The notes beneath the pieces were generated by a model, which made no database searches, was not told the origin of the DNA, and was given only the letters and a program-made list of their open reading frames with translations. A stretch of 64,000 nucleotides of DNA from the human T2T-CHM13v2.0 reference genome, Homo sapiens, in the NCBI RefSeq assembly GCF_009914755.1, contig NC_060926.1; one strand, 5' to 3'. Position numbers and translations under genes: made by a program. Positions 2,159-58,948 of the stretch are shown piece after piece (position 1 is the stretch's first letter; the number at the start of each line of letters is the position of its first letter).

Positions 2159-2688
<530 letters not shown>

Positions 2689-2889
2689 TTAAAGATCACC
2701 TGTTCCATGGCCTCTGTTGGTGTCTCGTAATGTTGACCATTAAATTCTATTTTTCTCTTTTACTATCCTTAGGCAAAGATTCAATGAACATCCACTATGT
2801 TCAGCCATGTGTCCACATTTCTGTCTTTATTCCTTCCTCATGCCTTATGGAGGAAACTTCTTAAAGATTTGTAACCATTTATGAAGCAA

Positions 2890-3105
2890 CCTCTGTATAT
2901 CAGGTTCTGCCTTAATGTTATTGTTATTAACATATTTAATAATAAATCATATGTTATGCATAAATTTTCTTTTACAAATAACTCAAATGAGATTGACAGA
3001 GGTTAAGAAAATTGAAGACAATTACACAGCTGATAAAAGAACAAAACCAAGATTTGAATTTAGTTTGCTTAGTTTCAAACTCCCCTATCCTTCCACTACA
3101 TCATT
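2890..3105 (-). mobile_element. MIR
   Basis: acagaggttaag...cacagct...ccaagatttgaa is the reverse complement of the MIR core. Confidence 0.6.
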
Positions 3106-3479
3106 TGCTTAGATGGCAGCATGAGAAAACTACATAGTTTGTCAAATCAAATTTCTCCATGAAACCCAAAATATGTGTAATGGAAATTAACCATATGAGA
3201 AATTGATGAATTTCAATTAACATTTGTACTCCTAAACTGTATGTTGGCTCTTTCTTAGTTTAATGCAATCAAAGTATCAGTTTCAAAGTACTTGACAATA
3301 ATTAAGGTGGAAGAAGTTTTTGGACAAATCCAGGTACTTGAGATAAATATTAATCAAAACTTTTCTTTTAACTTAATTTCACATGATCTTCTTAACTCTT
3401 TTGGGGCTGAAATTGGTTTATTTAAGATAAGCCTAGAACTGATTATTGGTTTAAGAATATAAGATTATAAGAGAAACAG

Positions 3480-4672
3480 ATGGATTTCAAAAACATTATG
3501 TTGAAGAAAAGAAGCCAGAAACAAAAGATTATATACTATATGAATTCTTTGTATGATGTTCTAGGATGGTTCTGCATATAAAATCAATTAATATGTTATA
3601 TCATGTCAACAGAAAAGGAAAAAGCACAAAATCCACATGATCATTTCAACAGATGCAGAAATAGACTTTGACAAAATCCCATCTCCTTTCATGATAAACC
3701 ACACAGCAAAATAGGAACAGAAGAAAACTTCCTCAACTTGATAAAGAGCATCTATGAAAAAAACCTATAGCTAACATCAAGATGAATAATGAAAGACTGG
3801 CTTTTTTTCCTCCTAAGATCAGGGACTAGACAGAGATGTCATCTCTTCAAAATTGCATGAAGATTCTAGCCAGGGAAATTATGCAACAAAAATAAATTAA
3901 TGACATCTGGTTGGAAATAAGAAAGTAAAACTATATTTACTTGAAGATGACATGATTGTGAGTATGGAAGATCTTTAAAATTTACTAACAATTTATTACA
4001 GATAATAAATGACCTCAGTAAGATTGCAAGACACAAAATCAATATATTAAAAAAACACAACTGGATTTCTGTACACTTGCACTAAACAATTCAAAATAAA
4101 ATTAAGAAAACCATTCCATTTATAGTAGCATCAAAAGTAATAACATATTTAGGAAAAAATTTAACAAAACAACTGTAAAATGTATACTCTGAAAACTACA
4201 AAACATTATTGAAAGATACTAAAGATCTAAATAAAAGAAAAAATCTGATGTTCATGAATTGGAAGACTTAGTATTGTTAAAATGGCAATACTTCCAAAAG
4301 TAATCTAAAAATTCAAGGTAATTATGATTAGAATCCCAGAAGACTTCTTGCAGAAATTGTCCAGCTGTTTCTAATATTCAGATGGAATTTCAAGAGACCC
4401 AGGATAACCAAAGCAATCTTGAAAAAGAAGAACAAAAAACTGGGACTCATTTTTCTGATTTAAAAATTTACCAACAAACTAGAGTAATCAAGACATTATG
4501 GTATGGCATGAGGACATAAACCAATGAAATAGAATTGAGAGATCAAAAATACGTCCATGTGTCTATGGTCAAATGATTCTCATCAAGAATGCCAAGACCA
4601 TTAAATGGGACAAAGAATAGTCTTTTAAACAAATGGTATAGGAACAACTGGCAAACCATATGAAAAAAAAGG
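3480..4672 (+). mobile_element. Old L1 (L1M) fragments, mainly ORF2 RT and post-RT region
   Basis: cacatgatcatttcaacagatgcagaa...tttgacaaaat (HMIISxDAEKxFDKI), gaagatgacatgattgt (FADD region), aacaaatggtataggaacaactgg. Confidence 0.85.
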
Positions 4673-6148
4673 CAATAGTCACTTGTCATTGAAATGGTTT
4701 GATAAAATAAAAATTCATGAGCATGATGATAAGACACACTACCAGCTACCATCTGGCCCAGGTTGTTTTACATAATATTGTATTATTTCTTTAGTCAACT
4801 TTTATGATAGCACCATACACACTGATTAGCTATTAACTTACCATGGTTATCCTTGAATCTTTTCAAGGATCTCTACTTCAGAATGGGAACATAATAGAAA
4901 TTGACATATATAATTGAATAAATAAACTTTCACATTCTCCTTTTTTTTCCTCATCATTCTCTTCCCATTGGCTGAAACATTTCACTAAAAAAGTCCTCCA
5001 GAGCACAGCCAAGGACACCCATCCCCCAAGGCTCACCATGTTCCCCTAGGATACTCTAGCCTTAGGAGAAGTGTTGGACCTGAAGAGAGAAGGGCAATTT
5101 TGCCCATGAGATGGAGCCAGTCTTTCTGTCTGCCTCCTTCTCTCACACCCCAGCCTGGTCATGCTTGTTAGCAATTCAGCCTTGGATGCCCAACTGGAGT
5201 GCCGTCCTGAAGTTGCATCATAGCTTCTGCACTGGCAGACCATGCCTGAACATCAGAGAGCCCCAGCAGAGCAGTCCCCCACTGACACATACCAGCCGTC
5301 TGCACCTTCCTTCCACCTCAGCCTCCCCCATGCCACTTTGCTGGCATACACTTGCCCATGGCCACTCCCTCATTGCTTTGCCAGCATGCATGTGTGCAGG
5401 TGGACCTTGCCTCCCCTTCCCTGCCAGTACATGCCACGAGTGCATATGCCTCCCACCATGCCATTGCTGCCAGCATGAGTGCACCCATGCCCCTCCTCCC
5501 ATCACCGCCCCACCACATCACCATTGTTGTCATGAATACATGTGTGGACACCAGCAACCTTGCCTCTGCCTTGTGCTTCCACTGCCACTAGTGTAAATGT
5601 GCAGGGGCACTGCCATGGGTGCAAATGCGCAAATGGACCCCAGCAGCCCCAACATTTCTCCCCTGCCATGTAACCACTACAGTCATTACTAAAACCTACA
5701 TGCAAACCAGTAGGCTTGGGCCTGCCAGCACTCCACCCGAGCTGACAAGTGTGCAGCCCACCATGCTGCCACTGCTGCTGGCACATTCAAACAAGTATCG
5801 ATCCCACTGCTACCAACCGATGAAGCACTTTGGCTGGCACCACCCTTTGAGGTGCTGTGACCAACAGTCCAGGAACACCTCAGCCCCTCCAACACAGCAC
5901 ATACCCAACCTCGAGAGGCCAGAGAACAAAGCCAGGGGCCGGATACCAACCATTAGAGTTAAAGCATGTAGCCCAGGCATGCCCAGCTGAGCCTTGCCCC
6001 TCCAAAAGTCTACCAGAAATGAAGCCAGATGACTGAACCCAACTTATAACACAATCAAACACCAAGGACATCAAAGAAGATAAAAGAAACAAAAACCCAT
6101 CCAAAGAACAGCAGCTTCAAAGGTGAAAGGAACATCAGCCCACACAAG

Positions 6149-7490: not shown

Positions 7491-10400
7491 ATGACAGGAG
7501 CAACTTCACACATACCAGTACTAACCTTGAAAATAAACAAGCTACATGCCCCAGTTGAACGGCACAGACTGCTAAGTTGAATAAAGAAGCAAGACCCAAT
7601 GGTATGCTATCTTCAAGAGGCCCATCTCACATGCAATGACACCCATAGGCTCAAGATAAAGGAATAAAGAAAAATCTACCAAGCAAACAGAAAACAGAAA
7701 AAAGCATCAGTTGCAATCATAGCTTCAGACAAAACAGACTTTAAACCAACAAAGATAAAAAAAGACAAAGAAAGGCATTACACAATGTTAAAGGGCTCAA
7801 TTCAACAGGAAGGCTTAACTATTAAATATTCTAACTATATATGCACCCAACAGAGGAGCACACAGATTCATAAAGCAATTCCTTAGAGACCTACAAAGAG
7901 ACTTAGGTAATAACAAAATAATAGTGGGAGACTTCAACACCCCACTGACAGTATTAGACATAAAGCATGGCAGAAAACTAACAAAGATATTCAGGACCTG
8001 AACTATGGGCCTAGTAGACATCACAGAACATTCCACCCCAAAGCAACAGAATATACATTCTTCTCACCTGTACATGGCATATACTCTAAAGTTGACCACA
8101 CATAAACCAACCCCAAAGCTAACAGAAGGCAAGAAATAACCAAAATCAGAGCTGAACTGAAGGGGTCTGAGACATGAAAAACCACACAAAAAAAAAAAAA
8201 TCAAGGAATTCAGGAGTTGGCCCTTGAAAAAATTCCTAAGATAAATAGACTGCTAGTTACACTAACGAAGAAAAAAAGAGAGAAGATCCAAATAAACACA
8301 ATTAGAAATGACAAAGCGTACATTACCACTGACCCAACAGAAATACAAATAACTATCAGAGACTACTATCAACACCTCTATGTACACAAACTAGAAAATC
8401 AAGGGGGAAAAATGGATAAATTTTTGGACACATACAACCTCCCAAGACTGAATCAGGAATAAATTGAATATCTGAACAGACCAATAATGAGCTCCAACAT
8501 TGACTCAATAAGTAAAAATCCTGCCAACCCAAGAAAAGCCCAGGACCAGGTGGATTCATTGCTGAATTCTACCAGATGTACAAAGAAAAGCTGGTACCAT
8601 TCCTACCGAAACTATTCCAAACAATTGAGGAGGGACTCACCCCCAACTCTATGAGGCCAGCATCATCCTGATACCAAAATCTGGCAGAGACACAACAAAA
8701 AAAGAAAGCTTCAGGACAATATTATTTATGAGTATTGATACAAAAAATCTCAACAAAATACTAGCGAACTGAATTCAGCAGCATATCAGAAAGCTACTAC
8801 ATTGAGATCGAGTAGGCTTTTTCCTTGGAATGCAAGGTTGGTTCCACATATGCAGATCAATAAATGTGATTCATCAGATAAACAGAACTAAAGACAAAAA
8901 CCACATGATTATCTCAATAGATGCAGAAAAGGCTTTTGACAAAATTCAACATTGCTTCATGTTGAAAGCTGTCAATAAACTAGACGTTGAAGGAGCATAC
9001 CTTAAAGTAATAAGAGTCATCTATGACAAACCCACAGACAACATCTTACAGAATAGGCAAAAGCTGGAAGTATTCTCCTTGAAAACCAGCATAAGACAAG
9101 GATGCCTTCTCTCACCACTCCTATTCAATCACCACTGAGTGCTCTGGCGTACTGGATGTCCCAGTCTGAAAAATCAGGCAAGAAAAGAAATAAAAGGCAT
9201 CAAATTAGGAAGAAAGAAAATCACATTATCCCTGCTTGTGGATGATGTGATTCTATAGCTAGAAAACCCCATAGCCTCTCCCCAAAATTCCTTGAGCTGA
9301 GAAAAAACTTCAGCAAAGTTTCAGGATGCAAAATCAATGTATAAAAAGCCAGTAGCATTTCTATACACCAACAATATCGAAGCTGAGAGCCTAATTAGGA
9401 AGAAAATTCCATTCACAATAGCCACAAAAGAACAAAATAAAATACATAGGAATTCAGCTATCCATGAAGGTGAAAGACCTCTACAATGAGAATTACAAAA
9501 CACTTCTCAAAGAAGTGAGAGATGATGCAAACAAACAGAAAAATATTATATGCTCATGGATAGAAAGAATCAATACTGTCAAAATGGCAATACTACCCAA
9601 AGTAGTTTACAGATTCAATGCTATTCTTATCAAACTACTAATGACATTCCTCACAGAATTAGAAGAAACTATTTTAAAATTCATATGGAACCAAAAAAAA
9701 AAGTGCCCAAATAGTAATGCTATCCAAATAGGCAATACTAAGCTAAAAGAACAAAGCTGGAGGTATCATATTACCTGACTTCAAACCATACTACAAGGCT
9801 ACAGTAACCAAAACAGTATGGTACTGGGACATAAACAGGCACATAGACCAGTGGAACTGAATTAAGAGCCCAGAAATAATGCTGCACACCTACAACCATC
9901 TGATCTTTGGCAAAGTTGACAAAAATAAGCAATGGGGAAAGGACTCCCTATTCAATAAATGGTGCTGAGATAAATGGCCAGCCATATGCAGAAGATTGAA
10001 ACTATACTCCTTCTTATAACATATACAAAAATCTCAAGATGGATTAAAGACTTAAATATAAAACCTAAAACTATAAAAACCATGGAAGGTAACCTAAGAA
10101 ATACCATCCTGGACATAGGGCCTGGCAAAGATTTCATGACAAAGATGCCAAAGCAATTGCAACAAAAACAAAAATTAATAAATAATGCCTAATTAAACTA
10201 AAGTGCTTCTGCCCAGCAAAGGAAACCAACACAGAATAAACAGACAACCTACAGAATCGGAGAAAATTTTTGCAAATTATGCATATGACAAAGGTTTAAT
10301 ATCCAGAATACATAAGAAACTTAAACAAATTTACAAGCAAACAACCCCATTAAAAAGTGGGCCAAGGACATGATCAAACAGTTTTCCAAAGAAAATATAC

Positions 10401-10849
10401 ATGCATTTAACAAGCATATTAAAAAATGCTCAACATCACTGATTATTAGGGAAATGCCAATCAAAACCACAATGAGATACCATCTCACACCAGTCAGAAT
10501 GGTTATTATGTAAAAGTCTAAAAATAACAGGTGCTAGCAAAGTTGTGGAGAAAAGGGAATGCTTACACACTTCTGGAGGAAATATAAATTAGTTCAGCCA
10601 TTGTGAAAAGCAGTTTGGCATTTTCTGAAAGATCTTAAAACTGAATTACCATTCAACCTAGCAATCCTGTTATTAGGTATATACCCAAAGGAATATATAT
10701 CATCCTACTATAAAGACACATGCATGTGTACGTTCATTGCAGCAGTATTTGCAATAGCAAAGACATGGATTCAACCTAAAGGCCCATCAATGGTAAACTG
10801 GATAAAGAAATGTAGTACATATATACTATGGAATACTATGAAGCCATAG
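7491..10849 (+). pseudogene. L1 ORF2p (endonuclease/reverse transcriptase) remnant
   Basis: MTG start, IVGDFNTPL (~7920), [34 protein letters not shown] (ORF 8830..9138), VDD at ~9240. Many stops and an internal deletion at ~8103. Confidence 0.9.
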
Positions 10850-11439
10850 AAAAGAATGAAATCATGTTCTTTGCAGCAATATGGATGGACCTGGAGGACA
10901 TTATCTTAAGCAAACTAACATAGGAACAGAAAACCAAATATTGTATGTTCTCACTTATAAGTGGAAGCTAAACATTGCATACGTATGAACACAAAGACGA
11001 GAACAACATATCAGGTCCTACTTAGGATGCAAGGTGGGAGAATGGTGATGATCAAAAAGTTACCTTTTGGGTACTATGCTTATTACTTAAGTGATGAAAT
11101 AATCTGTACACTAGATCCCCGTGACACACAATTTACATATATGATAAACCTGCACACGTACCCCTGAACCTAAAATAAAAGTTAAAAATAACTTCCATAT
11201 TTATGTCTTCACTCAAGTGTTAAATATTGTTAGCAGTAAAATGTACATACTTCAGAAATAATTTTATATCTGCCTTTACATACATACGTGAACATATTAA
11301 TATATACATCATTTTATATTATTGAATTCATACTGCATTTTTTCACAATCTGTTTCATTTACAGATAGTATATCTTGAATAATAATCATAGCTTCCACTT
11401 ATACACCACTTTTTATGGGAGAGGCAATATTCTAAGTCC

Positions 11440-21623: not shown

Positions 21624-22820
21624 TTTTTTTTACATTTTGTTTTTATAGATTCAGGAGATGCATGTGCAGCTTTGTTATGTGGACATATTGCATAATGATG
21701 AAGTTTAGGCTTCTAGTGTGTGCCCATCACCTGAATACCTAATGCTGTATGCAGTAGGTAATTTTTCAACCCTCACCCCTTTCCCACCCTCTCCTCTTTA
21801 GAAGTCCCCAGTGTCTGGTATTTCCCTCTGTGTGTCCACATGTACCCATTGTTTAGCTTCCACTTATAAGTGAGAATATACGGTATTCGATTTTCTGTTT
21901 CTGAGTTATTTCACTTAGGATAATGGCAAAGCCCCATCCATGTTGCTGCTAAAAAAATTATTTCATTATTTTTTATGGTTGTGTAATATTCCAGTACATA
22001 TATGTGTGTGTGTGTGTGTGTGTATGTATATATATATATATATATATATGTGTATACCAGTCATTCACATCCATCAGATCCATCCTTAGGTTGGCTCCAT
22101 GACTTTGCTATTGTGAGTGGTGCTGTGCTATGATAAACATATGAATACAGGTGTCTTTTTGATAAATTAATTTCTTTTTCTTTGAGCAGATACCCAGTAG
22201 TGGGATTACTGGGTCAAACGGTAGTTCTATTTTTAGTTCTTTGAGAAATCTCCATACCATTTTTCATAGAAGTTGTACTAATTTACATCCCTACCTAGAG
22301 TGTATAAGTGTTCTCTTTTCTCTGCATCCTCACTAACATCTGTTTTTTTAAAACCTTTTAATAATAGCCATTCTGACTGGTGTGGGATGGTATCTCATTG
22401 CAATTTTAATTTGCATTTCTTTTATGATTAGTGATTTTGAGCATTTTTTCATATGTTTGTTGGCCGCTTGGATGTCTTCTTTTGAGGTATGTCTGATTCT
22501 GTCCTTTGCCCAGTTTTTAATGGGTTTGTTTGTTTTTTATTCTTGTTGAGTTTTTTGAGTTCCTTGTAGGTTCTGGACATTAGTCTTTTGTCACATGCAT
22601 AGCTTGCAAATATTTTCTCCCATTCTTTACACTGTCTATTTACTCTGTTGATTATTTATTTTGCTATGCAGAAGCTAGTTGGAGTCCCATTTATCTATTT
22701 TTCTTTTTGTTGCATTTGCTTTTGAGGTCTTAGCCATAAATTCTATGCCTGAGCCAATGTTCAGAAGTTTTGTCTAGGTTTTCTTTTAGGCTTTTGATAG
22801 TTTCAGGTCATACATTTAAT
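21624..22820 (-). mobile_element. 5'-truncated L1 (L1PB4-like) containing (TG)n(TA)n at ~21998-22055
   Basis: Reverse 3' UTR and ORF2 end. aactact is repeated at 21617 and 22825 (probable TSD). Confidence 0.9.
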
Positions 22821-50624: not shown

Positions 50625-51961
50625 TCTGAAAGGAAAATAAAATCTCGGGACCCCAAACTCACTATGCCAAAGGGAAAAGTTAAGCTTTGGAACTGAGTCA
50701 TGCAAAAAACAAAAACAGAAACAAAACAAAACAAAACAAAAACCTGCCTTCCTTTTGTTCCCAAATAGATAGCTATAATTTCGTATGCTTACTTTATCTT
50801 ATGTAAAATGTAGATTTACAAAGCATAAGACAGGTACGTAATTGACTTGTTCCCCACTACTCTCTTTTCACCTCTAAAATGTGGATTTCTCATTGCCTAA
50901 CATCTCCCTTTTTTTCTTTCCTTCTTCCCCTCCTTTCCAATCTTTCCCTTTAAATACTGAAGTCCATCATGAACAGACACTTTTCAAAAGAAAACATACA
51001 TGTGGCCAAAAGTATATGAAAAAATGCTCAACATTGCTAATCATTAGGAAAGTGCAAATCAAAATCATTATGAGATACCATCTCACACCAATCAGAATGG
51101 CCATTATTAAAAAGTCAAAGAATAACAGATGTTGGCAAGGTTGTGGAGAAAAAGGAAAACTTACACACGGCTGGTGGCAATGGAAGTCAGTTAAGCCAAT
51201 GTGAAAAGTAGCTGGACTGTTTTTGAAAGAACTTTAAACAGAACTATCATTCAACCCAGCAATCCCATAACTGGTTATGTACCCAAAGGAATACAAATTG
51301 TTCTACCACAAAGACACACATATGCATATGTTCACTGTAGCATTATTCACAATAGCAAAGATATGGATTCAACTGAAATGCCCATCAATGGTAAACTGGA
51401 TAAAGAAAATGTGATACATATGCACCATGGAATACTATACAGCAATGAGATCATGTCCTTTGCAGGAACATGAATGGAGCTGGAGATCATTATCCTTAGC
51501 AAACTAATTCAGGAACAGAAAACCAAATAGTGCATGTTCTCACTTATAAGTGGGAGTTAAATAATGAGAATACATGGAAACAAAAAAGGTACCAAGAGAC
51601 ACTGGGTCCTACTTGAGGGTGGAGTGTGGGAAGAGGGAGAGGATCAGAAAAAATACCTATTGGGTACCATGCTTGGTACCTGTGTGACGAAATCATCTGT
51701 ATGTACATCAAACCTCCATAACATAAGTTACCTATATAACAAATCTGCACATCTACTCCTGAACCTAAAATAAAAGTTAAAAGGAAAGAAATGAATAAGT
51801 AAATAAATAAATATTGAAGTCCTCAAAACCTTATTTTGAAAAAAGCACAGGCCACAGATCCTACTTTAATTTGTGTTTCTTTTTCCCAGGCATGTTCTCA
51901 AACTTGGCAAAATAAATTTCTTAATTAATTGAGATCAGTCTCAGACACTTTTTGGTTTACA
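50625..51961 (+). mobile_element. MER4-family ERV1 solo LTR split by an L1
   Basis: tgaaaggaaaataaaatctcgggaccccaaactcact ... cagacactttttggtttaca. TSD agct / agtt. Confidence 0.82.
50966..51808 (+). mobile_element. 5'-truncated L1 (L1PA13-15 type)
   Basis: ORF2 end plus 3' UTR and A tail. TSD aaatactgaagtcc (50952) / aaatattgaagtcc (51809). Confidence 0.92.
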
Positions 51962-52146
51962 AGTTCATAATTTTTTAACTAGTTTTTTGTTTGTTTGTTG
52001 TTTGTTTGTTTGTTTGTTTTGCTATGCAGATGTGGAAAGAATGAAGTCACCATTTCACTGGGATCGCTAAACTGGTGGTATCAATCTTGAGCTGTTAAGG
52101 GTGTCTGCCAAGCTGTTGGAGGAAATACATCTTTAAAATCTATTTT

Positions 52147-52368
52147 ATTTCATTTTATTTTTTATTACTATAAGTTCTAGGGTAGATGTGCACAACGTGC
52201 AGGTTTGTTACATATGTATACATGTGCCATGTTGGTGTGCTGCACCCGTTAACTCATCATTTACATTAGGTATATCTCCTAACGCTATCCGTACCACCCA
52301 CCCCACCCCATGACAGGCCCTGGTGTGTGATGTTCGCCACCCTGTGTCCAGGTGTTCTCATTGTTCAA
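52147..52368 (-). mobile_element. L1PA5-type 3' UTR plus poly(A), inverted arm of a compound insertion
   Basis: T-rich tail then taagttctagggtagatgtgcacaacgtgcaggtttgttacatatgtatacatg ... ctcattgttcaa. Confidence 0.93.
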
Positions 52369-53235
52369 AAGAACTTAAACAAATTTACAAGAAAAAATCA
52401 AACAACCCCATCAAAAAGTGGGTGAAGGATATGAACAGACACTTCTCAAAAGAAGACATTTATGCAGCCAACAGACACATGAAAAATGCTCATCATCACT
52501 GGCCATCAGAGAAATGCAAATCAAAACCACAATGAGATACCATCTCACACCAGTTAGAATGGCCATCATTAAAAAGTCAAGAAACAACGGGTTCTGGAGA
52601 GGATGTGGAGAAATAGGAACACTTTTACACTGTTGGTGGGACTGTAAACTAGTTCAACCATTGTGGAAGACAGTGTGGGGATTCCTCAAGGACCTAGAAC
52701 TAGAAATATCATTTGACCCAGTCATCCCATTACTGGGTATATACCCAAAGGATTATAAATCATGCTGTTATAAAGACACATGCACACGTATGCTTATTGC
52801 GGCACTATTCACAATAGCAAAGACTTGGAACCAACCCAAACGTACATCAACGATAGACTGGATTAAGAAAATGTGGCACATATACACCATGGAATACTAT
52901 GCAGCCATAAAAAAGGATGAGTTCATGTCCTTTGTAGGGACATGGATGAAGCTGGAAACCATCATTCTGAGCAAACTATCTCAAGGACAGAAAACCAAAC
53001 ACCACATGTTCTCACTCATAGGTGGGAATTGAACACTTGGACACAGGGTGGGGAACATCATACACCGGGGCCTGTTGTGGGGTAGTGGGAGGGAGGAGGG
53101 ATAGCATTAGGAGATATACCTCATGTAAATGACAAGTTAATGGGTGCAGCACACCAACATGGCACATGTATACATATGTAACAAACCTGCACGTTGTGCA
53201 CATGTACCCTAGAACTTAAAGTATAATAATAATAA
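52369..53235 (+). mobile_element. L1PA5-type 3' fragment (ORF2 end, 3' UTR, tail)
   Basis: Region encoding the ORF2 C-terminus (ORF 52418..53032: [24 protein letters not shown]). Ends agaacttaaagtataataataataaaa. Confidence 0.95.
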
Positions 53236-54377
53236 AAAATCTATTTTAAGAAACATAAAAGAAAAATAAAAAGAAGAACAAAAATGGGATTTGAATTTCC
53301 ATGTTAGCCTGTGAAGTGAGGCCTTCATTCTTGCATCTCTATCTTAGCCCGGGTATCGTTTCTTACTTCCTAAACCAATAAATGCTCCCATGTGTCTTTA
53401 AGTTGCTTTGAGTGGTGTTGTTCTCCCTTGCAACCTTTGACCTATTATGAAGATAAATAACGGATGCTGGCAAGGTGGTGGAGAAAAGGGAACACTTACA
53501 CGCTTCCAGTTAGAACACTCTTCTAGTTAGAATACAAATATGGCTCAACCAGCCCTAAGATTATGAGGCTTAAAAACGGAGATTAGATGAGTGAATTTAG
53601 CCAGAAAATGAAGAAGTCAGAGTTGCTAGAGGGAAATAAAAGGTGTATATATGCCAGGGAAGGGAGTTCCAAGGACACGCAGGAGAGGTAGAGAGAAAGG
53701 AAGTTGGGGAAGATAGAGCTGGGGTAGAGGTTGAGGAATGTTTTAGCTTCAAAGGTTTTAGAATATACCCCAGGTCAGGAAATAGTCTAATGCACACAAC
53801 TTGGTCAGCTCACCCAATTCATCATCTGATGGCTATGCTAGTTCATAAATACTCAGTAACCAAGGTCTCTGCCTCTTTGCTTGTAATTCTGACTGTTGCT
53901 CTCTGTTAGCCAGCCTCAGTGCTATCTTTGGTTTACTATTAAAATGCTTCTCCTTGGACAGGGGTAACAACCAGTCTTATTTAACATTACAATCCTATGC
54001 AAAACTCCAGAGCATGCATAAACCTGATTTCTTAAGAAAGCACAAGGCTTATGTAAATCCTATTAAAGAAGCCAAGAAATTAAAGACTCAGCAAAATAGG
54101 GATTATCATATTTTGTACTCATTTAAGCATTCATAGATTTAGGGAGGGGTTGAGTGAAGCATAGAAAGTCAGATACCTTGATACAAAGCCTACTTTTGTC
54201 ACAAAACATTGTGACATGTTTTTTTAAAAGCCTGTTTTGAAAACATGTCAGTTCTGAAGCTGGTTTGGTAAGTAGTCTTCATATTAATCATCAGTTCAGA
54301 GATCCTTGGGCCAGAAAGCCCTGGAGTTGTAATCTAATCTTTGCTACCTTAGAGAACACCAATTTAATCCTACCAGG

Positions 54378-56496: not shown

Positions 56497-56787
56497 TGGT
56501 GTATATGTATCATATTTTCTTTATCCAATCCACTGTTGATTGGCACCTGGGTTGATTTTATGTCTTTGCCACTGTGAATAGTGTGATGAACATACAAGTG
56601 CATATGTCCTTTTGGTAGAACAGTTTATTTTCCTTTGGGTATATACCCAGTAACACGATGCTGGGTCAAGTGGTAGTTCAACTCTTTGTTCTTTGAGAAA
56701 TCTTCAAATGGCTCTCCAGGGTGGCTGGACTAGTTTATATTCCCACCAACCGTGTATAAATTTCTTCTTTTCTCCATAGCCAACATC

Positions 56788-56827
<40 letters not shown>

Positions 56828-57610
56828 TTTACTTTTAACAGAAGCTATTCTGACTAGTGTGGGATGGTATCTCATTGTGGTTTTGATTTGCATTTCCTGA
56901 TGATTAGCAGTTTTCATATATTTGTTGGCCTCTTTTATGTCTTCTTTTGAGAAGTGTTTGTTCATGTCCTTTGCCCATTTTTTAATGGAGTTATTTCTTT
57001 TTTTCTTGTTGATTTAAGTTCCTTTTAAATTCTAGATATTAGACCTTTGTCAGATGCATAGTTTGTGAATATTTTCTCCTGTTGTGTAGGTTTTCTGTAT
57101 ACTGCTTTGATGTTTTCTCTTGCTGTGCAGAAGCTCTTCAGCTTAATTAGGTCCCACTTATTTTTTTGTTTTTGTTGCAGTTGCTTTTGAGGACTGATGG
57201 AATACTATGCAGCCATGAAAAAGAATGAAATCATGTCCTCTGCAGCATTATGGATGCAGTTAGAGGCTATTTTCTTAAGTGACCTAGTGCAGAAACAGAA
57301 AACCAAATACTGCTTATTCTCATGTATAAGTGGGAGCTAAACACTGGTAACACATGGACACAAAAATATGAAGAATAGACACTGGCGACTATTAGAGCAG
57401 GAAGAGAGGAAGTGGGGCAAGGGCTGAAAAACTGCCTATTGGATACTATGATTACTAACTGGACGATGGATTCAGTCATGTCTCAAACCTCAGCATCATA
57501 CAATATGCCCATGTAACAAACCCACATATGTGCCCCCTAGTTCCAAACTAAAAGTCGAAAAAATAAAATAAAAATTTAAAAACAAAACTATGAATAAATA
57601 AAATTTTTTT
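56497..57610 (+). mobile_element. L1 (L1PA16/PA17/PB4-like) with 5' inversion; 56497-57195 inverted, 57197-57610 sense
   Basis: The inverted arm ends at ...catatacacca and the sense arm starts atggaatactatgcagcc, which are adjacent in L1. (TTA)n at 56790-56826. Confidence 0.9.
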
Positions 57611-57694: not shown

Positions 57695-58948
57695 TGTGTT
57701 GAGGTCCCCAAGACCATTCCAAGGTTCAATGATTCTCTAGGAAGCCTCACAGGACTCAACACAAGTTGTGCTTACAACTATGATTAATTACATGGTATGA
57801 AAGAATACAAAGCAAAGTCAGCAAAATTAAAGGCAGATGGATAAATTCCAGGGGAAAGCAGGTACAAGCTTCCCAGGATCCTCTCCCAGGGGAGTTGCAC
57901 AGAACACAGGTAATTTCCCCCAGCATCAAGCTGTGACAACAAATATGAAATGTTGCCAACCTAGAAAGCTCGTACAACATTCAGTGCTCAGAGTTTTTAC
58001 TGGGGGCTTATCATATAGGCAACCAATTCCTGGCATGTATGAAAATTCCAGACTCCTTGAAGGAAATCAGGTGATCAATATAAACCATATTGTGTGCACA
58101 GGCAGTTTAGGTACAGTTAGCTACTCTTAAAGAAAACAAAACAAAACAAAACAAAAATAACAGCTTTACTGAGGCATAATTGACATACAAAAATCTGCAC
58201 ATATTGATTGTATATGTTTGGACATATGCATATACATGTGAAACCATCACTATAATCAAGGTAAAAAACTTATCTATCACCTCCAAAAATTTTCTTGTGT
58301 CCCTTGTGAATTTGTTTGTTTTTGTGATAAGAATACTTAATATGAAATCTGCCCTCTAAACAAATATTTAAGCGCATAATACAATATTGGTGACTATAAG
58401 CATTATGCTGCACAACAGGTCTCTAGAGCTAATTCTTCCTGCATAATTGTAATTTACTACCAGCTGAGAAGCAACTCCCTATTTTCTCCTCCCCCTGTTC
58501 CCTGGTAACCACTGTTCTTTTCACTGTTTCTAGGAGTTTGACTATTTCGGGTACCTCATGTAAGTGGAATAATGCAGTGTCCTGCCGTGCCTGGCTTATT
58601 TCATTCAGCATAATGTCCTCCAGGTTCATCCATGTTGTTTGAAATGGCATGATTTCTCTCTTCTTTGAGGCTGAATAATATTCCATTGTACATATTTGTC
58701 ACAATTTCTTTACCCACTCATCTGTCTGTAAATTTTTGGGTTGCTTCCATATGTTGGCTATTATGAATAATGCTGCAATAAATATGGGAGTACAGATATC
58801 TCTTCACAATCCTTATTTCAATAATTACTTCTGGGAGTGGTGGGAATTCTCCTCAAATCAAGATTCTCAGATGCCGGCCGAGGGCAACCTTGTAAGCAGG
58901 ACTTTCTAAGGATAAGCGGTCAGGTCTGCTTTATGTATTTTCTGTGCA
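57695..58948 (-). mobile_element. MER68-like ERVL LTR split by an L1MA
   Basis: tgtgttgaggtccccaagacca ... gggcaaccttgtaagcaggactttctaaggata..tctgtgca. Confidence 0.78.
58155..58822 (-). mobile_element. L1MA10-like 3' fragment
   Basis: cagctttactgaggcataattgacatacaaaaatctgcacatatt ... gggagtacagatatctcttc. Confidence 0.82.

What the first reader, a model, noticed from the sequence alone, without database searches (positions are those of the whole stretch)
52135..53247. Double-tailed L1 insertion: two outward-facing L1PA5 3' ends in one TSD with an endonuclease site on each strand
Seen: AAAATCTATTTT is duplicated at 52135-52146 and 53236-53247. Between the copies lie a minus-strand L1 3' UTR plus poly(A) (52147-52368) fused 5'-to-5' to a plus-strand 870-bp L1 3' fragment with its own tail, so the last ~200 nt of L1 are present twice. 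The rebuilt empty site ctTT/AAAATCTATTTT/AAga has the canonical 5'-TTTT/AA-3' cleavage motif on both strands, 12 bp apart. Established: ordinary twin priming primes the second strand internally, giving one tail and no duplicated 3' end (compare 56497-57610). Inference: both nicked T-rich 3' ends primed reverse transcription on a poly(A) tail, from two L1 RNAs or the same RNA twice, and the two cDNAs were end-joined. The arms look like the same subfamily and differ by roughly 10% by my count, including opposite-direction CpG decay and a 9-nt deletion in the right arm. The structure bears on whether ORF2p also makes the second nick. I cannot tell whether this locus has been described.
Basis: partly seen in the sequence, partly recalled or inferred. 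Interest (0 to 1): 0.8.

Follow-up and report, generated by a model that had tools for sequence, protein, structure and literature searches.

The report
Two-tailed inverted L1 insertion, one duplication
Two pieces of the human LINE-1 jumping gene sit head to head inside a single target-site duplication, each with its own A-rich tail; this is best read as one insertion in which both cut DNA strands started copying from a poly(A) tail, a route proposed in 2010 but hardly documented.

Summary
An exact 13-nt direct repeat (52135-52147, 53236-53248) encloses a minus-strand L1 3' UTR with its A-tail (52148-52368). That arm is joined, with 1 nt of overlap and no filler, to a plus-strand 867-nt L1 3' fragment with its own tail. 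The last ~205 nt of L1 are present twice, at 185 of 207 identical. Both strands of the rebuilt empty site read TTTT/AA, 12 nt apart. Both arms carry the same older-type diagnostic state. Their differences at two former CpG sites are opposite decays of one CpG. Their private non-CpG divergence is equal (about 2.7-2.8%). No other locus in this genome spans the internal junction.

The best reading (about 0.6) is a single event with target-primed reverse transcription from poly(A) on both nicked strands. This is the "dual priming" hypothesised by Meyer et al. 2010, for which I found no documented locus with L1 sequence in both arms.

The main rival (about 0.2) is a later L1 insertion, without its own duplication, into the TTTT/AAAG site that the first insertion created. 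Only primate orthologues can separate the two, and none are held here. One versus two template RNAs cannot be told. The "L1PA5" label was not testable. Interest is moderate.

The parts
52135..52147 (.). Left copy of the target-site duplication (AAAATCTATTTTA). The 13th base may belong to the tail instead.
   Evidence: family D6, 100% identical to 53236-53248. Chance test.
52148..52166 (-). A-rich tail of the inverted (left) arm, about 19 nt and interrupted by T and G. It reads as a T-rich run on the + strand and abuts the left duplication copy.
   Evidence: In the alignment with 58 other L1 3' ends it lies where their tails begin.
52167..52368 (-). Inverted arm: the L1 3' UTR from the ORF2 stop codon to the 3' end.
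   Evidence: 89% identical to the right arm; 92-94% identical to 39 other genomic L1 3' ends (2,488 first-look candidates, 40 scored). Its start at the stop codon follows.
52367..52369 (.). Inner 5'-to-5' junction, with 1 nt (A at 52368) shared by both arms. There is no filler and no copy of the duplication.
   Evidence: (25 other copies read ...CTACAAAGAACTT... upstream of the right arm's start), and (BLAST extents meet at 52367/52368).
52369..53029 (+). Right arm, ORF2 C-terminal coding part. The reading frame is broken (12 stops in the starting frame).
   Evidence: translation; 52595-53029 equals ORF2p residues 1131-1275, E 1.4e-88; 95-96% identical to 39 genomic copies.
53030..53222 (+). 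Right arm: stop codon and 3' UTR. It carries a 9-nt deletion just after 53030, between GAAC direct repeats.
53223..53235 (+). Short A-rich tail of the right arm (AATAATAATAA-type). It runs into the AAAA that begins the duplication.
53236..53248 (.). Right copy of the target-site duplication.
   Evidence: family D6.

Best explanation
This was one insertion event with target-primed reverse transcription on both strands.

The target ...CTTT|AAAATCTATTTT|AAGA... carries the L1 endonuclease consensus TTTT/AA on both strands, 12 nt apart. Nicking at both sites leaves two 12-nt 3' overhangs that each end in TTTT-3'. The bottom-strand end annealed to a poly(A) tail and was extended into about 870 nt of L1 cDNA, which became the right arm. 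The top-strand end also annealed to a poly(A) tail, instead of to an internal site as in ordinary twin priming. It was extended for about 200 nt, through the 3' UTR to the ORF2 stop codon, and became the left arm.

The two cDNA ends were then joined with 1 nt of microhomology (end-joining type), and the gaps were filled in. This duplicated the 12-13 nt between the nicks.

What is shown: the anatomy, the two consensus sites, the equal age and type of the arms, and the absence of a source copy. What is inferred: that both arms arose in one event. What is unresolved: whether the two cDNAs were copied from one RNA (used twice) or from two RNAs.
For: 1. One exact 13-nt duplication flanks the whole composite, and none flanks either arm alone. 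A second staggered insertion at the same nicks would have left a third copy at the inner junction. There is none.

2. Both outer ends are A-rich tails that abut the duplication.

3. Both strands of the empty site read TTTT/AA. That hexamer occurs at only 0.0013 per position per strand in this window.

4. The inner join is clean, with a 1-nt overlap.

5. Both arms read ACAGGGTGG, where 21 of 39 copies picked without regard to the 3' UTR read A at the second diagnostic base (19 of them GGAA). Among the 16 copies with T at that base, the site that reads TCA in the left arm and TTG in the right arm is CA 6, TG 5, CG 4 and AG 1. So the arms differ there by opposite decays of one ancestral CpG. The same holds at GACGAG, which reads GATGAG in the left arm and GACAAG in the right.

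6. Private non-CpG change is equal. The right arm has 24 of 854 (2.8%) against the column majority of the 15 of 62 fetched loci that cover the whole arm. The left arm has 5 of 182 (2.7%) outside the G-rich tract, counted by my classification of the 14 differences listed.

7. No other place in the genome spans the inner junction. Of 39 non-self scored hits (1,517 candidates), 0 cross it. The flank is unique.

8. The mechanism was proposed in print as 'dual priming' (PMC2837659, section read). ORF2p endonuclease nicks the top strand during first-strand synthesis in vitro (PMC7617806, passages).
Against: No outgroup orthologue could be examined, so simultaneity is inferred and not shown.

The left arm looks somewhat more diverged in the shared 3' UTR. 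It has 14 non-CpG differences against the column majority of 39 copies, versus 7 for the right arm. Its best genomic matches are 94% identical, versus 96% for the right arm. Five of the 14 sit at type sites and 4 sit in a 28-column G-rich tract, but an older left arm is not excluded with so few sites.

The arms differ at AACGGG (left) versus AATGGG (right). Among the 16 same-type copies this site is TG 13, CG 2 and CA 1. The arms may therefore come from different source elements, which sequential insertion would also allow.

After the right arm inserted, its 5' junction read TTTT/AAAG, itself a perfect endonuclease site for a later minus-strand insertion. The T-rich end of the duplication is therefore needed under the rival as well.

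I found no documented parallel case: 0 of 62 other fetched L1 loci show the arrangement, and no such locus turned up in 7 literature searches.
Confidence: 0.6

Rival explanations
1. There were two independent insertions. The 867-nt plus-strand L1 inserted first and made the 12-13-nt duplication. Its 5' junction then read ...TATTTT/AAAGAAC. A later L1 RNP nicked the top strand there, primed on poly(A), made the 220-nt inverted arm, and resolved without a duplication of its own (a blunt break, or a small target-site deletion that trimmed the 5' end of the first element).
For: The new junction TTTT/AAAG is a perfect endonuclease site. Target-site deletions are reported for about 7-8% of L1 insertions (Table 1 passage of PMC12016303). 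Short duplications are commoner in 5'-truncated L1 (abstract and passages of PMC2912911). The left arm shows more differences in the shared region (14 versus 7) and has lower best-hit identity. The arms differ at one possibly diagnostic CpG site.
Against: It needs a hit at one exact nucleotide, no duplication, and an insertion within the same age class. Private non-CpG divergence is 2.7% versus 2.8%, and both arms share the type state. It also leaves as coincidence that the original empty site has AA after TTTT on the top strand. My rough estimate, which is an inference and not a tool result, is that fewer than one such same-age coincidence is expected per genome.
Confidence: 0.2
2. There was a single TPRT event with self-templated synthesis. 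After first-strand synthesis, the 3' end of the cDNA folded back onto the 3' UTR part of the same cDNA and copied it out to the tail. The new A-run then annealed to the TTTT-3' overhang of the top strand, and the gaps were filled.
For: It gives the same final order and needs only one RNA and one priming on RNA. Inverted duplications from self-annealed 3' ends at L1 break ends are described for flanking genomic DNA (passages of bioRxiv 10.1101/2024.12.14.628481).
Against: The fold-back would have to start 660 nt away from the cDNA end with only 1 nt of homology. It would also have to stop inside the tail. If it ran on, it would copy the duplication in inverted orientation, which is not seen. 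It needs more steps than direct priming of a TTTT-3' end on poly(A).
Confidence: 0.07
3. It is a post-insertion rearrangement or a copied composite. Either a later inverted duplication of the right arm's 3' end was placed at its 5' junction, or a pre-formed chimeric transcript or segmental copy carrying the same junction was retrotransposed.
For: Inverted repeats are recombinogenic. Meyer et al. considered read-through or cryptic-promoter transcripts for their poly(T) loci.
Against: No other locus spans the junction: 0 of 39 non-self scored hits. The flank is single-copy. The arms differ by 11%, so any duplication would have to be about as old as the insertion. The inverted copy ends exactly at the duplication boundary with its own tail, which an unrelated DNA duplication does not explain.
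Confidence: 0.05

Closest known systems
Twin priming (5'-inverted L1 insertions; Ostertag and Kazazian 2001, known to me only through citing papers, since PMC311219 is not held)
   Same: One target-site duplication encloses two L1 segments in opposite orientation. Both nicked strands prime reverse transcription, and the two cDNAs are joined at an inner junction.
   Different: In twin priming the second strand anneals inside the L1 RNA. The inverted segment then lies 5' of the direct one in L1 coordinates, there is one tail, and the overlap at the junction is small (median 12 bp in PMC12016303). Here the inverted segment is the 3' end itself with a second tail, and about 205 nt are duplicated. 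An older L1 at 56497-57610 in this window shows the ordinary form.
Dual priming (hypothesis of Meyer, Srikanta, Conlin and Batzer 2010, Mob DNA 1:7, PMC2837659)
   Same: It is exactly the proposed scheme. One poly(A) tail anneals to the bottom-strand nick, a second anneals to the top-strand overhang, and an antisense cDNA grows from the top strand. The inner junction shows little or no microhomology, as they expected for end joining.
   Different: Their 39 loci have only a poly(T) stretch at the 5' end, with a gap of 20 bp or less to the L1. They could not tell those loci from twin-priming variants and left validation to future work. Here the top-strand product carries about 200 nt of L1 3' UTR. 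Whether two mRNAs were used, which is part of their definition, is unresolved.
[quoted passage not shown]
   Same: Two outward tails and two endonuclease motifs flank one L1 body that was joined from two cDNAs (passages).
   Different: Those bridges join two distant genomic sites, come from two separate insertion attempts, and produce rearrangements. Here both nicks lie 12 nt apart at one site, and the product is a simple insertion with a duplication.
Nested independent L1 insertions
   Same: Two L1 3' ends lie next to each other.
   Different: Nested insertions normally each have their own duplication and differ in age. In the other L1 pairs I saw (L003, L014 and L030) the tails face each other or the copies lie apart.

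Membership tests
LINE-1 (L1PA-type) 3' fragments | Coding homology to the ORF2p C-terminus, followed by the L1 3' UTR | tested here: met
   52595-53029 matches ORF2p residues 1131-1275 of PDB 8sxt_A, E 1.4e-88; 92-96% identity to dispersed genomic copies, with 2,488 to 5,380 first-look candidates. Pfam gave no family for this segment.
LINE-1 (L1PA-type) 3' fragments | A-rich tail at the 3' end, a target-site duplication and a TTTT/A nick site | tested here: met
   These are met for the composite, and at both outer ends.
   No labelled consensus or RepeatMasker is held. I could only show that both arms share the GGGT state and derive from a TCG state.
Classical twin priming | One duplication around two L1 segments of opposite orientation | tested here: met
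Classical twin priming | A single poly(A) tail, with the inverted segment taken from L1 sequence 5' of the direct segment (internal priming) | tested here: not met
   There are two tails, and the inverted arm duplicates the last ~205 nt of the direct arm.
Dual priming (Meyer et al. 2010) | An inverted poly(A)-derived T-run abutting the 5' duplication copy, and a sense L1 with a tail at the 3' copy | tested here: met
Dual priming (Meyer et al. 2010) | A top-strand 3' end able to anneal to poly(A) | tested here: met
   The duplication ends in TTTT, and the empty site reads TTTT/AAGA on the top strand.
Dual priming (Meyer et al. 2010) | Two different mRNA molecules as templates | tested here: inconclusive
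   The arms differ at AACGGG versus AATGGG, but this is a CpG site. Among 16 same-type copies it is TG 13, CG 2 and CA 1. My likelihood estimate favours two RNAs by under two-fold, which is an inference.
Dual priming (Meyer et al. 2010) | Both arms arise in one event | not testable with these tools
   This needs primate orthologues. Only this genome is held.

The most novel reading that the evidence does not exclude
This is a fossil of a true one-step, two-sided TPRT. L1 endonuclease cut consensus sites on both strands of a near-palindromic AAAA...TTTT target, and both TTTT-3' ends primed on poly(A). That would make it the first sequence-resolved instance I could find of the 'dual priming' pathway with L1 sequence in both arms. 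A bolder rider: the inverted arm ends at the ORF2 stop codon, 2 nt from where the direct arm has a 9-nt slippage deletion. This would fit two reverse transcriptases working on one RNA and interfering with each other at that point.
Probability: 0.6. Interest if true: 0.55.

Novelty: new variant of a known kind. Interest (0 to 1): 0.45.

Why it matters
If it was a single event, it shows that the top-strand 3' end made during L1 integration can serve as a full TPRT primer on a poly(A) tail. It need not be only an internal twin-priming primer or a second-strand primer. It also gives a concrete signature for finding more cases: tails facing outward, one duplication that begins AAAA and ends TTTT, and an endonuclease site on both strands.

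A census of such cases would measure three things:
- how often both nicks fall at consensus sites;
- whether one or two RNAs, or one or two RNPs, act at a site;
- how the two cDNAs are joined.

The insertion also creates a 205-nt inverted repeat with a 660-nt spacer, a type of structure that is prone to instability. On its own it is one old, non-genic locus. The broader question of who makes the second nick has already been addressed biochemically (PMC7617806).

Tried and rejected
- **Genome-wide scan.** I tried a pattern search for the same L1 word in both orientations with a gap of 0-1500. No census was possible.
- **Cutting 30 more loci.** I fetched only 290-nt 3' ends instead.
- **Pfam.** The first call failed on stop codons. 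The stop-free 145-aa stretch matched no family. Identity came from the PDB sequence search instead.
- **Typing by nearest neighbours of each arm.** I rejected this as biased, because copies chosen for similarity share the query's CpG decays. I replaced it with 39 copies chosen on the ORF2 part only.
- **Nearest neighbours by ORF2.** These did not resolve a subfamily. They mix 16 copies with T and 21 with A at the diagnostic base, plus 2 others.
- **Other two-tailed cases in what I had fetched.** 0 of 62 other loci show one.
- **Literature.** Seven searches found no documented single-site insertion with L1 sequence and a tail in both arms. 'Dual priming' together with 'retrotransposition' occurs in one held paper only. 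Ostertag and Kazazian 2001 is not held. Subscription papers and the supplements of the bioRxiv preprints were not visible and may hold such cases.
- **Rejected mechanisms.** A fold-back of the cDNA end alone would duplicate the 5'-most part of the insert, not the tail end. A copied composite is ruled out because no second junction exists.

Full report
**What is there.**
- AAAATCTATTTTA occurs at 52135-52147 and again at 53236-53248, 13 of 13 identical.
- Directly inside the left copy lies a T-rich run (52148-52166). After it comes the reverse complement of an L1 3' end (52167-52368).
- Directly inside the right copy lies a short A-rich tail (53223-53235). Before it comes a plus-strand L1 fragment that starts at 52368/52369.
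- The reverse complement of the left arm aligns with the last part of the right arm at 185 of 207 columns (89%).
- The right arm lacks 9 nt (GAACAATGA, between two GAAC words) that the left arm and 57 of 58 other copies have (L052 lacks 1 nt just 3' of it).

**Identity by tool.** The stop-free translation of 52595-53029 matches residues 1131-1275, the very end, of human LINE-1 ORF2 protein (PDB 8sxt_A, E 1.4e-88). Pfam gave nothing for this piece. The ORF2 frame further upstream is broken. The left arm begins at the ORF2 stop codon, so it is the 3' UTR plus tail and nothing more.

**More than chance.**
- In 20,000 random placements at the same spacing in this window, with 3 nt of slack on each side, an abutting direct repeat of 11 nt or more appeared only twice, both of 13 nt. 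About two draws were expected to land on the locus itself, and I take both hits to be that.
- The flank left of the duplication is single-copy in the genome. Of 40 scored hits (109 candidates), only the locus itself covers it.

**The empty site.** Removing the insert and one repeat copy gives ...CTTT|AAAATCTATTTT|AAGA... (read). The bottom strand reads TTTT/AAAG at the left end of the duplication, and the top strand reads TTTT/AAGA at the right end. Both are the L1 endonuclease consensus (as given in PMC2912911), 12 nt apart. TTTTAA occurs at 0.0013 per position per strand in this window. Two such nicks leave two 12-nt 3' overhangs that each end in TTTT-3'.

**The inner junction.**
- In 25 other L1 copies, the sequence before the right arm's first bases reads ...CTACAAAGAACTT.... 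L1 homology of the right arm therefore starts at AAAGAAC (52368) at the earliest.
- L1 homology of the left arm ends at 52368.
- The arms thus share one A, with no filler and no copy of the duplicated word. BLAST extents agree: hits to the two halves of a junction-spanning query meet at 52367/52368.

**Type and age of the arms.**

*A biased first attempt.* Nearest neighbours of each arm (aligned) are a biased sample, because copies picked for similarity share the query's CpG decays. I did not use them for typing.

*A sample unbiased for the 3' UTR.* I took the 39 best genomic matches to the ORF2 part of the right arm only and fetched just their 3' UTRs (alignment; tallies).
- Both arms read ACAGGGTGG. 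Of the 39 copies, 16 have T and 21 have A at the second diagnostic base, and 2 have another base.
- Among the 16 T-type copies, the site that reads TCA in the left arm and TTG in the right arm is CA 6, TG 5, CG 4 and AG 1. That is the pattern of an ancestral CpG decaying either way, so this difference between the arms is post-insertion decay.
- The same applies to GATGAG (left) versus GACAAG (right), at a site that reads GACGAG in many copies.
- At AACGGG (left) versus AATGGG (right), the 16 copies are TG 13, CG 2 and CA 1. The left arm's source probably had CG. The right arm's source had either CG (then decayed) or TG.
- By my rough likelihood estimate, which is an inference, this favours two source RNAs over one by less than two-fold. 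I call that unresolved.

*Age.*
- The right arm has 24 private non-CpG changes in 854 aligned bases (2.8%) against the column majority of the 15 of 62 fetched loci that cover the whole arm. Those copies themselves range from 2.1 to 4.7%.
- The left arm has 14 non-CpG differences in 203 bases against the majority of the 39 copies. The copies range from 3 to 19, with a mean of 9.6.
- By my classification of the listed positions, 5 of the 14 are the type sites above, 4 lie in the 28-column G-rich tract, and 5 of 182 (2.7%) lie elsewhere.
- The arms are therefore of the same age within wide error. In the shared 3' UTR alone, however, the left arm does look more changed (14 versus 7 differences; best genomic matches 94% versus 96%). 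I count that against my reading.

**No source copy.** A query spanning the inner junction found 39 non-self scored hits among 1,517 candidates. Thirty-five cover only the right-arm half, 4 cover only the left-arm half, and none crosses the junction. The composite was not copied from a surviving locus with the same junction.

**Mechanism.** On the top strand, the antisense copy of the L1 3' end is continuous with the left flank's 3' end and begins with a T-run. The simplest way to make this is reverse transcription primed by the top-strand TTTT-3' end on a poly(A) tail, mirrored by the ordinary bottom-strand event. The two cDNAs were then joined with 1 nt of homology.

This is the scheme that Meyer et al. 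2010 called dual priming (PMC2837659; abstract, part 2 of the Results, and the 'Dual priming' section).
- Their 39 loci carried only a 5' poly(T).
- They could not separate those loci from twin-priming variants.
- They wrote that they hoped future studies would validate the mechanism.

Top-strand nicking by the ORF2p endonuclease during first-strand synthesis has been seen in vitro (PMC7617806, passages). Only one of its three mapped top-strand sites resembled the consensus.

**Rivals.**
- *Sequential insertion.* After the right arm went in, its 5' junction read TTTT/AAAG, a perfect site for a later minus-strand L1. If that second insertion made no duplication, or a small target-site deletion (about 7-8% of L1 insertions in PMC12016303), the same picture results. 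A second insertion with a normal stagger is excluded, because it would have left a third copy of the duplicated word at the inner junction. Against the rival stand the exact-nucleotide hit, the equal age and type, and the coincidence that the original site already had AA after TTTT. I put it at about 0.2.
- *Fold-back of the first cDNA on itself, followed by annealing of the new A-run to the top-strand overhang.* This gives the same order but needs more steps and only 1 nt of homology at a site 660 nt from the cDNA end. I put it at about 0.07.
- *Later DNA duplication, or a copied composite.* This is unlikely (about 0.05), given and the precise tail-to-duplication boundary.

**Comparison with the known.**
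- Ordinary twin priming gives one tail and an inverted segment taken from upstream L1 sequence. An older L1 at 56497-57610 in this window shows that form: minus-strand pieces at 56497-57009 and a plus-strand continuation from 57197, meeting at the same L1 coordinate.
- The other papers I looked at do not describe a single-site, two-tailed L1 insertion in the passages I saw: PMC2912911, PMC3024322, PMC7058536, PMC10415145, PMC12350158, PMC13009371 and bioRxiv 10.1101/2024.12.14.628481 (passages only).
- Seven full-text searches found none. Subscription journals, the original twin-priming paper (not held) and preprint supplements were not visible.

**Verdict.** It is a variant of twin priming that has been predicted in print, seen here in unusually clean form. 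Interest is moderate at 0.45. The decisive tests are primate orthologues and a genome-wide census.

Noticed in passing
52367-52368 and 53030-53035: The inner end of the inverted arm (first L1 bases TTGAAC, that is, the ORF2 stop codon) lies 2 nt from the start of the 9-nt deletion in the direct arm. That deletion sits between two GAAC words, at the base of the potential 205-nt hairpin. It could be coincidence, slippage at the hairpin base, or interference between two reverse transcriptases on one RNA.
   Followed up: partly
52268-52295 (left arm, G-rich tract of the 3' UTR): Four of the left arm's nine private non-CpG changes fall in the G-rich tract (three G-to-T and one G-to-C). That is far denser than in the rest of the arm. 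The tract is also the most variable part among the 97 other copies aligned.
   Followed up: partly
56497-57610: This is an older L1 (74-81% identical to the right arm) with the ordinary 5'-inverted layout. The minus-strand pieces at 56497-57009 and the plus-strand continuation from 57197 meet at the same L1 coordinate, and there is a single A-rich tail near 57560-57610. An (ATT)n run lies at about 56793-56826 inside the inverted part.
   Followed up: partly
53249-53285: An A-rich stretch (AGAAACATAAAAGAAAAATAAAAAGAAGAACAAAAA) lies directly after the right duplication copy and is included in NCBI's repeat mask (52184-53288). It is probably the A-rich target neighbourhood or the remnant of an older tail.
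   Followed up: no
50969-51555; 10314-10964; 22086-22562; 58619-58781: These are further old L1 ORF2 fragments, 75-77% identical to the right arm. The one at 50969-51555 lies 580 nt upstream of the locus on the same strand but is not contiguous with it.
   Followed up: no
51985-52021: A (GTTT)n-type microsatellite lies about 115 nt upstream of the left duplication copy.
   Followed up: no
L089 (G000:C9:1212280-1212569): One of the comparison L1 copies carries a 21-nt internal tandem duplication in the conserved part of the 3' UTR.
   Followed up: no
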